Below, one piece after another: positions 39,001-42,000 of a DNA stretch of 50,251 bases; the stretch's first letter is position 1, and each line of letters begins with the position of its first letter. The position numbers are program-made. The DNA is from a virus (taxonomy: Duplodnaviria; Heunggongvirae; Uroviricota; Caudoviricetes), in the IMG/VR virus record IMGVR_UViG_2718218322_000009; one strand, 5' to 3'.

Positions 39001-42000
39001 ATAAACGTAGTTATTCACTGCGCCCAACTTCATCCCAAACTTTTCGGCAATTTCCCGTCGGGGTACACCACGCTGATGCAGTTGCCACGCCAGCTCAATA
39101 TCACGCTGTGAACATTTGGCTGACTGGTGATAATCACCCCGTAACATCATGCTGATACCCAGTTCCCGCGCTTTCGTCCTGACGGCTGACTCACTACGGC
39201 CAATCAGATAACCGATGCTTTCGACTCTCATCGTTCCCGCACACTGCCGGAGTATCAGGATTTCAGCCCAGCGCCACTTCTTCCAGCCACTCACCGCTGC
39301 TGCTCTCTGGTGGCGGTAATATCCCGGAGAATATCCCTGTGTTTGTTCAGTTCCCGTAGCGCAGCACAGACTCGCTCCCACTTCTGAACATTACTTTTCG
39401 CCCGGCGCAGCTCGCGGTTAGCCACATGCAGCGATGGTAGAATCAGGTCATCTGCTTTCGCTTCAGTGAACGATTGCTGCAACTTCACAATGTCCTCCAC
39501 CGCTTCTGTTTTAATTTCTTCCTGTGCAGCCGTTTCCTGGACTGGTAACGCAACACCAGCTGGCTGAGGAAGGGCTTTACCCTCCGTTTCAGCTACGGAT
39601 GCTGCTTTCGGCTCTGCCGGTAAATCAACGCCCGGTATGCAGTAACGAAATTTACCATCCTGATTCACGCGAATCAGACACCCTTTGCTGATTGCCATTG
39701 CCAGCGATGAATTCGCCCGGCGGGAGGTAATTCCGAACATCAATGCCAGTTCATCCGCCGTTTGTGGGCCATGTTGTTCAATCGCCTCTGTCAGCATTTG
39801 CGCCGTCACTTTCGGTACCGGTGACACCGGTTCACTTTCACCAGCCTGAGTCAGCCACCATATCGCCCCCTTGTTATCCGCTTCTCCACGGCGTTTCAGT
39901 TTCCACAGTTCGTTGACAGCCTCTTCACGACTAATTCCAAGGCGAGCTGCCACCACATGTGAAGAGGCTCTTTTCAGTGCTTTCAGTGCGTCAGATACGG
40001 TTTCCATTAAAATTTCCTCCGACAAAATCGTTTCTCAGATTCAAACAAAACCAGCCGCCTTCCGGCGCTCGTATTCCTGTTTCAGTAATTCAATTGGCGT
40101 TGGCCCTTGCGGGCACTTCGGCGATGCGAGTTGTCTCCGGATCGGGGGAATACTCATCCCGTTACCAACTTGCTTTGCCCATTTCGTCAGTTGCCGTTCT
40201 GCAAGTCGTTTTAACTCACCTTCCGTCATCTGCCGCTCAATCCCTCTGTCACGCATCTCGAGGCAAATGTGGTACAGCACCGGCTGTGGCCACGGGTATT
40301 TATCACTCCCGTCGTACCGCCAGGATTCATTCCTCCAGCGACGGTACTCCTCCATCACGGCATCCACCGTCAGGCCAAATGGATTTGCCCCGCTCTCCGA
40401 AATCAACGCCACAAACTCAGCCAGATCCGGAGGCCACGTTTCACCCGCCCGGCAGCGGTCCATGCACTGACGGCAGACCTGCCGGATTTGCTGTTCAGTC
40501 ATCGCGCCAATCTGAGCAATCCAGAGCTTCGACGGCGCAGCCCCGTTCTTCTGGGTCCAGCGGTTCGAATACACCTCCCCCATAAGTTCCCACAGCTTCC
40601 AGGCCGTTTCCGTTGCTGATAAATCCGTTTTCACGTTCCCACTGTTCACGTGCTGCCCGAATTTCCTGAACTGCCCGTGATGCGGTGCCACCTGGTGCTG
40701 CATGGCTTACCCCCTTGCTGACTGGTTTTACCTGTGCCCTGACGTGCTGCACGTGACGGGCAAATTTCTGCTCCCACTGAACCTGCGTGAAAACCTTCCC
40801 CTCCGCCATCCAGTAATCCCGGAATGCGGCAAGCTCAGCAGGTGTAAACTCAGGCTCAGGCTCAGGCAGAGCCATACCCCACAATGCAGCCCGCTGTCGA
40901 AAATCCAGCGACGGCCGCCAGACACCAGTCATCGGAAATTTCCCGATCGGTTCGCTCAGGCCATCCGGGTATTCAGGTTCTGCTGTCTGCAACGGCGCGC
41001 CATTCGACTCACTGGCTGGAGCACTCTCGCGCATGCGCGCGTTATGTGTGGGGTTTAATTCTTTATCTGTATCTGTATCTGTCGTGACTTGTCGTGACAT
41101 ATGCGTGACGCGTCGTGACTCATCGTGACAATCAGTGTTCTGCTCCCGCAGTCTTTCCCGCTCCCGCTGCGCTCTCTTGCGCTCTGCCGGGGATTTTGCG
41201 GTTTGCGAAACATTACCGTTATCCTCCTTCATCACCTGGCGTTTTTCCCATCCGGAAATAAGATCGCCATCCAGAACTCGCCCCTGCATTGCATGCAAAA
41301 TTGAATCAATCACGTCTTCCGTCACATCAAGCGCACTTGCTAAATCTTCCGTCGTGACATCAATGTGACCACGTAGTGACTCGCCGTGACATGTCGTGAC
41401 ATTTCGTGACGCACTCACCAGAAGGTGGATATACACCGCCATCACTGTTGCGATTGGCTGTCCTGAGACCCTGGCAATGGTTCGCCATTTGGGATCATTT
41501 GGCATGTCATGCCACAATCTGAGCCAGGCATTAGCCATACTCACCTCATCTGATACCGAACTTTACCCTCGAACATCCGGAAGAAATCCGGCATGAATAT
41601 TGTTGGTCAATGCACGACAACAGCATTACCAGGCTGACCCCCACTGTTAGTCAGGGTGCCCCAGGCGATCGCCGCTGCGACAAAATCATCCACATCTTTC
41701 ACCAGCCGATCCCTCCGTTCGACGATCTCACGGTAATATTCAGAGCTGTGACTGCGCATACGGGCCACCAGCAGAGGCGGCATTGCCTTTTCGATCGCCG
41801 GTAACAGAGCCTGCATTTTTTCAACAGCATCAGGGGTGTCTTTATCCAGCCAACGGAAAATTTTCTGGGTATTACGAGCCAGGGCTTCCGGATGGCTGTC
41901 GTCGTACAGTTCCGGGAACGTCATCCCCAGTTCGAAATAAGTCCGGGCTATTTCAGCTGCAGGAACTTTCTCACCATCAGGATATGCCCAGGCATTCATC

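What the first reader, a model, noticed from the sequence alone, without database searches (positions are those of the whole stretch)
41055..41410. Two helically phased CGTGAC iteron arrays inside the O-like gene: probable replication origin
Array A has six GTGAC repeats and array B five CGTGAC repeats, each spaced 10-11 bp, about 250 bp apart within the initiator ORF. B is preceded by TCTGTA x3. This is the lambda-style arrangement of an origin embedded in the initiator gene.
Basis: partly seen in the sequence, partly recalled or inferred. Interest (0 to 1): 0.45.

Follow-up and report, generated by a model that had tools for sequence, protein, structure and literature searches.

The report
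Prophage replication origin inside initiator gene
Two sets of short repeats, each spaced one DNA turn apart inside the replication-initiator gene of an E. coli O157:H7 prophage, are very probably the binding sites of that initiator and mark the prophage's replication origin; this is a familiar phage design, seen here in a gene family where it had not been pointed out.

Summary
GTGAC occurs 6 times at 41354-41410 and 5 times at 41084-41129, spaced 10-11 bp, with none expected by chance. ATCTGT x3 abuts array B.

The gene lies on the minus strand (40495-41538). It is not a lambda O homologue. It encodes an N-terminal winged-helix domain, a disordered linker and a C-terminal DnaT-type ssDNA-binding domain, and a lambda-P-type loader gene follows it.

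Comparative evidence supports an origin:
- The repeat period is not a multiple of 3, so the motif is read in all three frames.
- Core bases are frozen even at third codon positions, while the spacers drift.
- About 50 distant prophages and phages keep both arrays at the same gene positions. The core changes by clade (GTCACG, CGAACG, GTAACG, GTGACG, GCAACG) and changes in both arrays together.
- The least stable, purine-rich AT tract of the gene directly follows array B in 43 of 48 loci. Lambda's O gene has the same layout after iteron 4.
- The mosaic joint with other initiator types falls in this tract.

No binding or replication experiment exists. Verdict: an iteron-type origin embedded in its initiator gene; a new member of a known kind, bordering on a new variant; moderate interest.

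The parts
41353..41410 (-). Array A: six phased units, core GTCAC(G) on the gene strand, spacing 10-11 bp. It encodes residues 43-62 (SRNVTTCHGESLRGHIDVTT), a low-confidence hairpin inside the N-terminal winged-helix domain.
   Evidence: Position and copies are conserved in homologues. Copy number differs by a 21-bp, 7-codon indel. Hairpin pLDDT is about 65.
41083..41129 (-). Array B: five phased units, core GTCACG on the gene strand, spacing 10-11 bp. It encodes residues 137-152 in the disordered linker. These are the proposed origin-proximal iterons.
   Evidence: The cores are invariant while the spacers vary among close relatives. The array is conserved across the family with a clade-specific core.
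41054..41083 (.). AT-rich (73%) tract, purine-rich on the gene strand, containing ATCTGT x3 (it encodes TDTDTDKE). It is the candidate DNA unwinding element and also the mosaic joint between N-terminal and C-terminal gene modules.
   Evidence: It is the least stable 30-bp duplex window in 39900-42500 and falls in the top 2.6% of the whole window. The same position holds in 43 of 48 homologous loci and in lambda O after iteron 4. Matches to genes with other N-termini stop at 41064-41080.
41028..41039 (.). GC-only palindrome CGCGCATGCGCG on the far side of the AT tract, within the most stable stretch of the gene. It is a possible boundary of the unwound region.
   Evidence: L003 has a different palindrome, CGCGCACGTGCGCG, at the same place. 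The role is inferred only.
41321..41325 (+). A single extra core copy in inverted orientation, about 30 nt downstream of array A in the sense of the gene.
   Evidence: It is conserved in the GTCACG clade, where it encodes D-V-T, but is absent from the other clades, so its significance is open.
40495..41538 (-). Initiator gene (347 aa from the ATG at 41538; a GTG lies at 41544). RefSeq calls it 'DnaT-like ssDNA-binding domain-containing protein'; other sources call it 'phage replisome organizer'.
41239..41538 (-). Coding region of the N-terminal winged-helix DNA-binding domain (residues 1-100).
40732..40938 (-). Coding region of the C-terminal DnaT-type ssDNA-binding domain.
40041..40502 (-). 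Lambda-P-type helicase loader gene. It overlaps the initiator stop codon by 8 nt.
   Evidence: Pfam PF06992 E 1.6e-16. PHROG 109 'P-like helicase loader'. RefSeq 'replication protein P'.

Best explanation
The two arrays are iterons: binding sites for the N-terminal winged-helix domain of the protein that this gene encodes. Together with the adjacent AT-rich, purine-rich tract they form the replication origin of this lambdoid (RacR-type immunity) prophage.

Proposed sequence of events:
1. The early operon (YdaS/Cro-like, YdaT/CII-like, initiator, P-like loader) is transcribed through the site. The gene order is shown.
2. Initiator monomers bind head-to-tail, one per helical turn, on one face of the DNA at array B (5 sites) and array A (6 sites). 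This is inferred.
3. The resulting nucleoprotein complex, possibly bridging the two arrays about 25 turns apart, stresses supercoiled DNA so that the least stable tract at 41054-41083 next to array B melts. This is inferred by analogy with ori-lambda and SPP1 oriL.
4. The C-terminal DnaT-type domain holds the exposed single strand and/or recruits the P-like loader carrying host DnaB, which starts theta replication. This is inferred.

Because the sites lie in coding DNA, the protein has placed them where sequence is tolerant: a variable hairpin and a disordered linker.
For: 1. The repeat is real and not due to chance: 7 matches to the triple pattern against 0.00 expected.

2. It is a DNA-level repeat. 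The period of 10-11 nt puts the core in all three reading frames (SR / VT / CH / ES), so no peptide repeat explains it.

3. There is selection on the DNA. In 51 distinct E. coli-clade sequences, third-codon positions inside the cores vary in 3 of 18 columns, against 77 of 132 elsewhere in the same 499 nt. Spacers vary freely, even at second codon positions (8 of 17 against 16 of 131).

4. The architecture is family-wide. Strict chains of at least 4 phased copies occur in 42 of 75 homologous gene segments, against 1 of 449 flanking control segments. Arrays sit at about nt +129 and about +389 of the gene.

5. The cores co-vary. The core differs between clades (GTCACG, CGAACG, GTAACG, GTGACG, GCAACG, GGAACG; always NNN-ACG). 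In 47 loci where both arrays are detected independently, 40 share an invariant 5-mer by the automatic test. By my reading of the consensus strings, four more differ only in register or case and two (L031, L072) have array A inverted, leaving L061 as the one real discordance. Different cores occur within one host genus, for example Pseudomonas, which rules out a host factor.

6. In L031 and L072 array A is inverted relative to array B, as expected for a duplex-DNA binding site.

7. The unwinding element. The least stable 30-bp window of the 2.6-kb replication/immunity region abuts array B. The same holds in 43 of 48 homologues. The same computation on lambda O finds the known AT-rich region 13 nt after iteron 4, with the same purine bias.

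8. Modularity. The C-terminal half plus the AT tract is shared at 85-92% with genes that have unrelated N-termini and their own different repeats. The joint is at 41064-41080.

9. Protein parts fit the model: winged helix, DnaT ssDNA-binding domain and a P-type loader next door.

10. Precedents from the literature: ori-lambda lies in the middle of O (PMC7466680), and SPP1 oriL lies inside gene 38 with repeats plus an unwinding element (PMC5737612, PMC6316719).
Against: - There is no experimental evidence of binding, melting or replication for this family. Eight literature searches turned up no paper describing an origin for this initiator family.
- The winged-helix assignment rests on a predicted model, and the hairpin encoded by array A has low confidence.
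- Two arrays are not needed in the lambda model. Some family members lack a detectable array A (for example L007, L028, L071), so the role of array A is unclear.
- I found no residue in the recognition helix that tracks core specificity.
- The AT tract is short (about 30 bp), and it also has to encode a charged linker, so its composition could partly reflect protein low complexity.
- The prophage may be defective in this strain, in which case the origin would be a relic.
Confidence: 0.8

Rival explanations
1. The arrays are operators through which the initiator, or another phage protein, controls its own gene: an autoregulatory roadblock or attenuation of early transcription. They are not sites where replication starts, and the origin lies elsewhere.
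For: The arrays lie inside the transcribed early operon. Array A is 270 bp from the AT tract and is dispensable in some relatives. Initiators such as plasmid Rep proteins are known to use iteron-like sites for autoregulation (general knowledge).
Against: Array B is consistently followed by the least stable tract of the gene in 43 of 48 loci, exactly as in ori-lambda. No other repeat cluster exists in the 50-kb window. The mosaic module boundary is at the tract. The two roles are not mutually exclusive.
Confidence: 0.1
2. The repeats are sites for a different DNA-binding protein, from the host or the phage (for example a repressor, a partition or packaging protein, or a nucleoid protein), and not for the initiator.
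For: Nothing here demonstrates which protein binds. No recognition-helix residue of the initiator tracks the core.
Against: The arrays always travel with this N-terminal domain and are replaced by other repeats when the N-terminus is replaced. Cores differ between prophages of the same host genus. The neighbouring genes (immunity, loader or helicase type) differ among the loci that keep the arrays.
Confidence: 0.05
3. There is no DNA-level function. The repeats are a by-product of a repetitive or low-complexity peptide, of slippage, or of recombination 'boundary' sequences that promote module exchange.
For: Copy number changes by 21-bp slippage-like indels. The neighbouring TDTDTD tract is a true low-complexity peptide. 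A mosaic joint lies next to array B.
Against: The core occupies all three reading frames. It is conserved at synonymous positions while the encoded spacer residues drift. The two arrays change core in concert over at least 6 clades, and array A is inverted in two loci. The enrichment is 56% against 0.2% in flanking DNA.
Confidence: 0.03

Closest known systems
Ori-lambda inside gene O of phage lambda and Stx phages (O-some, P loader)
   Same: The origin is embedded in the middle of the initiator gene, in the part that encodes the inter-domain linker. Lambda's iterons encode residues 117-145 of 299; array B here encodes 137-152 of 347. In both, the iterons are followed at once by an AT-rich tract that is purine-rich on the coding strand (lambda AT 78%, purine 75%; here 68% and 62%). 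A P-type loader gene follows. The module sits downstream of cro- and cII-type genes (PMC7466680).
   Different: The initiator shows no detectable homology to O. The units are 10-11 bp direct repeats with a 5-6 bp core and no dyad symmetry, not 18-19 bp symmetric iterons spaced about two turns apart. There is a second array inside the part of the gene that encodes the DNA-binding domain. The C-terminal domain is DnaT-like.
SPP1 G38P 'replisome organizer' and oriL; by memory, the related lactococcal TP901-1 ORF13 and Tuc2009 origins
   Same: The initiator lacks an AAA+ domain and binds direct repeats located inside its own gene, next to an AT-rich unwinding element; it hands over to a separate helicase loader (PMC5737612, PMC6316719). 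Sources name members of the present family 'phage replisome organizer'. One relative (P0079) carries the G38P-type C-terminus PF09524. The N-domain resembles the DnaD N-terminal domain in fold.
   Different: Sequence membership in Phage_rep_org_N is not established: E 0.016 in 1 of 7 members and PHROG 4880 at E 5.6e-4. No second distant origin like oriR is present in the window. The hosts are Proteobacteria. The C-terminus here is DnaT-type.
SaPI origins (staphylococcal pathogenicity islands)
   Same: Short penta- or hexanucleotide iterons are read by a winged-helix domain. There are 6-12 copies in two sets, and specificity differs between elements (PMC9371898).
   Different: SaPI iterons lie downstream of rep, flank a central AT-rich region and point in opposite directions. 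Rep is itself a self-loading helicase. Here the arrays lie inside the gene, usually in the same orientation, the AT tract lies outside the pair, and a separate P-type loader is used.
E. coli DnaT (primosomal protein I, replication restart)
   Same: The C-terminal domain (residues about 200-270) is 54-56% identical to the ssDNA-binding domain of DnaT and superposes at 0.9-2.0 A.
   Different: It is not an orthologue: the NCBIfam DnaT equivalog scores 89.7 bits against a cut-off of 201. The N-terminal half is unrelated and provides origin specificity.

Membership tests
Lambda O / ori-lambda type origin | Initiator homologous to lambda O (Pfam Phage_rep_O, PF04492) | tested here: not met
   There is no PF04492 hit at E<=0.01 for the whole protein or at E<=1 for 7 N-terminal homologues. 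hhalign of the N-terminal profile against lambda O gives probability 0.06%.
Lambda O / ori-lambda type origin | Four to six iterons of about 19 bp with internal dyad symmetry | tested here: not met
   The units are 10-11 bp, direct and without a dyad; there are 5 plus 6 copies in two arrays. Lambda's iterons were read for comparison.
Lambda O / ori-lambda type origin | Iterons in the middle of the initiator gene, followed by an AT-rich tract | tested here: met
   Array B lies at gene nt 410-456. The least stable window begins at its end. The geometry is the same in lambda and in 43 of 48 homologues.
Lambda O / ori-lambda type origin | P-type helicase loader gene immediately downstream | tested here: met
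   PF06992 E 1.6e-16. RefSeq 'replication protein P'.
SPP1 G38P-type replisome organizer with internal origin | N-terminal Phage_rep_org_N domain (PF09681) | tested here: inconclusive
SPP1 G38P-type replisome organizer with internal origin | Direct repeats inside its own gene plus an adjacent AT-rich unwinding element | tested here: met
   The SPP1 description is in PMC5737612.
SPP1 G38P-type replisome organizer with internal origin | G38P-type C-terminal domain (PF09524) | tested here: not met
   The C-terminus is DnaT-type, PF17948. PF09524 is seen only in one relative, P0079.
Iteron-type replication origin (general) | Three or more direct repeats in helical phase, next to a low-stability tract, with the initiator encoded in cis | tested here: met
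Iteron-type replication origin (general) | Repeat sequence co-varies with the cognate initiator | tested here: met
   There are at least 6 core classes across clades. In 47 loci with both arrays detected, 40 share an invariant 5-mer by the automatic test; I read about 45-46 as concordant once register differences and the two inverted arrays are allowed for. The repeats are replaced when the N-terminus is replaced.
Iteron-type replication origin (general) | Initiator binds the repeats, and the fragment supports initiator-dependent replication | not testable with these tools
   This needs EMSA or footprinting and an ori-plasmid assay.
DnaT primosomal protein | Full-length equivalence to DnaT | tested here: not met
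   NCBIfam NF002770 scores 89.7 bits against a cut-off of 201, and only residues 192-271 match. The domain-level match is strong.

The most novel reading that the evidence does not exclude
Array A may be more than a spare binding platform. It is written into the hairpin of the initiator's own DNA-binding domain, so the iteron core directly dictates residues of the protein that reads it. The only residues that distinguish the GTCACG clade from the CGAACG clade are residues 48 and 58, and both are encoded by array A. If that hairpin contacts DNA, binding site and reading head would be physically coupled. A single DNA change, spread by gene conversion between the arrays, could then switch origin specificity in one step. 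That would explain the simple 'NNN-ACG' series of specificities across Proteobacterial prophages.
Probability: 0.06. Interest if true: 0.75.

Novelty: new member of a known kind. Interest (0 to 1): 0.4.

Why it matters
It locates the probable origin of a replication module present, with at least 80% of the gene covered, in 658 of 5426 complete E. coli genomes, including O157:H7 prophages. Prophage replication in such strains bears on induction, in-situ amplification of neighbouring genes and interference between prophages.

It also defines a broad family across Gamma-, Beta- and Alphaproteobacteria with a common layout and a small set of natural specificity variants (NNN-ACG cores). That is a ready-made system for studying three things: how a winged-helix initiator reads one-turn iterons, how origin specificity switches, and how a binding-site array is overprinted on coding sequence.

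In practice the motif rule could be used to annotate origins in these prophages. The rule is two phased arrays at about +130 and +390 nt of the gene, followed by a purine-rich AT tract.

Tried and rejected
- Peptide repeat. Rejected: the core falls in all three reading frames.
- Homology to lambda O. Rejected.
- DnaA boxes, IHF sites or oriC-type 13-mers in the origin. None were found in 40400-41700 except one 1-mismatch DnaA box at 41686, outside the gene.
- A second origin-like cluster elsewhere in the window, like SPP1 oriR. None was found; only a 2-copy GTCACG pair at 23801/23811 and scattered copies.
- Conserved inverted copy after array A. It is present in the GTCACG clade only, where it may simply encode D-V-T. 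Left open.
- Specificity-determining residues. A column scan found only residues 48 and 58, which array A itself encodes. Members with the same core in array B but no array A (L071, L077) lack them, so this most likely reflects passive dual coding.
- Conserved helical phasing between arrays A and B. The distances vary (about 191-247 bp from the end of A to the start of B) and are tied to protein length, so nothing can be concluded.
- Literature. Eight searches found no description of an origin for this initiator family or of oriJ at sequence level. The library lacks most subscription journals, so prior description cannot be excluded.
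Full report
**What is in the sequence**

On the + strand, GTGAC starts at 41084, 41094, 41105, 41115 and 41125 (array B; all five are CGTGAC). It also starts at 41354, 41365, 41376, 41386, 41396 and 41406 (array A). Spacings are 10 or 11 bp throughout.

These are 11 of the 56 GTGAC in the 50-kb window. A pattern of three phased copies matches 7 times, all inside the arrays, against 0.00 expected from 100 dinucleotide-preserving shuffles.

**The gene**

The arrays lie in a minus-strand ORF, 40495-41538 (347 aa from the ATG that RefSeq uses). The window is 100% identical here to a prophage of E. coli O157:H7 strain 1130. In that strain the order of genes is:
- racR-type repressor (divergent);
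- YdaS/Cro-like gene;
- YdaT/CII-like gene;
- this gene;
- 'replication protein P';
- DUF1627 gene.

So it is the initiator position of a lambdoid replication module. It is not an O homologue. Pfam finds only a C-terminal DnaT DNA-binding domain (PF17948, E 2.5e-16). No Phage_rep_O hit appears even at E<=1 in seven diverse N-terminal homologues. A profile comparison with lambda O gives probability 0.06%.

An AlphaFold2 model built from 35 sequences shows four regions:
- a compact N-terminal domain (residues 1-100), mostly at pLDDT 88-96, with the first ten residues and the array-A hairpin lower at 63-67;
- a basic helix (117-133);
- a disordered linker (about 134-200);
- a confident domain at 200-270.

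In the sense of the gene the motif is GTCAC(G). Array A encodes residues 43-62, a low-confidence hairpin within the winged-helix domain. Array B encodes residues 137-152 in the disordered linker. The hexamer repeat encodes TDTDTD.

**The repeat is constrained as DNA, not as protein**

The period of 10-11 nt is not a multiple of 3. Successive cores are therefore read in all three frames (..SR....VT....CH....ES..).

I compared 51 distinct sequences of the E. coli clade (88-99% protein identity). Third-codon positions inside the cores vary in 3 of 18 columns, against 77 of 132 in the rest of the first 499 nt. The spacers between cores vary even at second codon positions (8 of 17 against 16 of 131) (also visible).

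Copy number changes in steps of 21 bp, which is two units or seven codons. The window has 6 copies in array A where phages Evi, phi1 and pAEv1818 have 4.

**The architecture is family-wide and the core co-varies**

tblastn and a pattern scan recovered the N-terminal domain in phages and prophages of Escherichia, Aeromonas, Pseudomonas, Ralstonia, Bordetella, Serratia, Janthinobacterium, Sphingomonads and others.

Strict chains of at least 4 copies of one 5-mer at 9-12 bp spacing occur in 42 of 75 homologous 560-nt gene segments. They occur in 1 of 449 equally long control segments from the flanks of the same loci. Arrays start at a median of nt 129 and nt 389 of the gene.

The core differs between clades but always has the form NNN-ACG: GTCACG, CGAACG(C), GTAACG(C), GTGACG(C), GCAACG, GGAACG. 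In the 47 loci where both arrays were detected independently, 40 share an invariant 5-mer by the automatic test. By my reading of the consensus strings, four more differ only in register or case and two (L031, L072) have array A inverted, which leaves L061 as the one real discordance.

Ralstonia phage Firinga, at only 35% protein identity, has both arrays at the same gene positions with GCAACG. The inversion in L031 and L072 fits a duplex-DNA site and does not fit an RNA or peptide signal. Different cores occur within one host genus; Pseudomonas loci carry GTCACG, CGAACG and GTGACG. The reader of the motif is therefore element-specific, not a host factor.

**The neighbouring tract looks like an unwinding element**

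By nearest-neighbour duplex stability, the least stable 30-bp window in 39900-42500 is 41054-41083 (AT 73%). It abuts array B and ranks in the least stable 2.6% of the whole window. On its far side is the most stable part of the gene, including the palindrome CGCGCATGCGCG (41028-41039).

In 43 of 48 homologous loci with a detectable array B, the least stable window of the first 840 nt of the gene starts within -10 to +30 nt of the end of that array. The 40 nt after the array average 63% AT, against 42% for the gene, with 74% purines on the coding strand.

As a positive control I ran the same computation on lambda. In gene O the least stable window starts 13 nt after the annotated iteron 4, with 78% AT and 75% purines. 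Lambda's iterons encode residues 117-145 of 299, so the layout of array B plus tract closely mirrors ori-lambda.

No DnaA box lies in the region.

**Modularity**

The C-terminal half of the gene (window 40495 to about 41064-41080) recurs at 85-92% identity in many E. coli prophages and phages. There it is joined to unrelated N-termini: DUF1376 as in Rac ydaU, or an HTH type as in strain 55989.

Those genes lack GTCAC arrays. They carry other repeats just upstream of the shared GATACAGAT...AAAGAATTAAACCCCACACAT junction. The N-terminal DNA-binding domain and its repeats therefore travel as one module, and the AT tract plus the DnaT domain travel as another. This is what one expects if the first module sets origin specificity and the second does the melting and recruitment.

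**Mechanism proposed**

The following are shown:
- the anatomy of the locus;
- DNA-level conservation of the cores;
- co-variation of the cores between arrays and clades;
- the position of the low-stability tract;
- the domain composition and the neighbouring loader gene.

The following are inferred:
- The winged-helix domain binds one unit per helical turn on one face of the DNA at both arrays.
- The complex, perhaps bridging the arrays about 25 turns apart, drives melting of 41054-41083 on supercoiled DNA.
- The DnaT-type domain captures the single strand and/or recruits P-DnaB.

The precedents are ori-lambda (PMC7466680) and SPP1 oriL, where a 356-bp segment inside gene 38 with repeats plus an unwinding element is sufficient in vitro (PMC5737612, PMC6316719). 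The geometry of short 5-6 nt cores read by a winged helix, arranged in two sets, most resembles SaPI origins (PMC9371898).

The role of array A is the weakest point. Some relatives lack it. It could be a second assembly platform, a regulatory site, or both.

**Rivals**

- An autoregulatory operator without origin function (confidence about 0.1) is not excluded for array A. It does not explain the invariant tract after array B.
- A different binding protein (about 0.05) is hard to reconcile with the strict linkage to this N-terminal domain across otherwise different neighbourhoods.
- A functionless by-product (about 0.03) is contradicted by the frame independence, the synonymous-site conservation and the concerted core changes.

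**Novelty**

An iteron origin inside the initiator gene is textbook for lambda, P22 and SPP1. What is particular here:
- the initiator type (DnaD-like winged helix plus DnaT domain);
- one-turn direct repeats;
- two arrays, one overprinted on the coding region of the DNA-binding domain;
- the simple series of core variants.

I found no paper describing this, but the searchable library is incomplete. I file it as a new member of a known kind, bordering on a new variant, with moderate interest.

The most novel reading not excluded is that the hairpin encoded by array A takes part in reading the iteron, so that site and reader are physically coupled. The only clade-diagnostic residues (48 and 58) are indeed encoded by array A. 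However, relatives with the same core in array B but no array A lack those residues, so I give this about 6%.

Noticed in passing
L169 (Rac-SA53 ydaU) gene nt about 350-470; L171, same region; L170 (E. coli 55989) gene nt about 400-490: Initiator genes share the window's C-terminal half and AT-rich junction but have other N-termini and carry their own repeats just upstream of the junction. The DUF1376/YdaU type has TGTTCAA(A/G)C copies, including an inverted pair GTTCAAAC...GTTTGAAC. The 55989 type has AAAGACACCCAAA x2 and GGAACCCAAAG x2. These are candidate iterons of two further origin specificities, perhaps including the classical Rac oriJ.
   Followed up: partly
window 41028-41039: The GC-only palindrome CGCGCATGCGCG lies directly beyond the AT-rich tract, in the most stable part of the gene. 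A relative (L003) has a different palindrome, CGCGCACGTGCGCG, at the same place. It recalls the palindrome beyond the AT-rich region of ori-lambda (from memory).
   Followed up: partly
L031 (Pseudomonas sp. JAI111) and L072 (Lysobacter sp.), first about 200 nt of the initiator gene: Array A is in inverted orientation relative to array B, with the same core (CGTGAC against GTCACG; GCGTCAC against GTGACGC). The relative orientation of the two arrays is therefore not fixed in the family.
   Followed up: partly
window 40495-40502: The annotated start of the P-like loader gene (40502) overlaps the end of the initiator gene by 8 nt, which suggests translational coupling of initiator and loader.
   Followed up: no
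window 18954, 19116, 19278, 19440 (+ strand): GTCACG recurs four times at exactly 162-bp intervals. This points to a tandem 162-bp (54-codon) repeat in a gene elsewhere in the prophage, unrelated to the origin.
   Followed up: no
window 23801-23816: Two GTCACG copies lie 10 bp apart (GTCACGGCCAGTCACG), far from the replication genes. This is the only other phased pair in the window. It is probably chance, but could be a stray initiator site.
   Followed up: no
window about 44545-45758 (from L001 10051-11264): In the identical region of strain 1130, RefSeq annotates an IS3-family IS1203 element with a programmed frameshift between the immunity region and dicB. The early-left region of this prophage is therefore interrupted.
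   Followed up: no
P0079 and other hits: The same N-terminal domain is found fused to different C-terminal domains: DnaT-type PF17948, SPP1 G38P-type PF09524, or none recognised. It is followed by different partners: a P-type loader in E. coli and a DnaB-type helicase in Ralstonia phage Firinga and Aeromonas phage pAEv1818. The origin-recognition module thus combines with several replisome-recruitment modules.
   Followed up: partly
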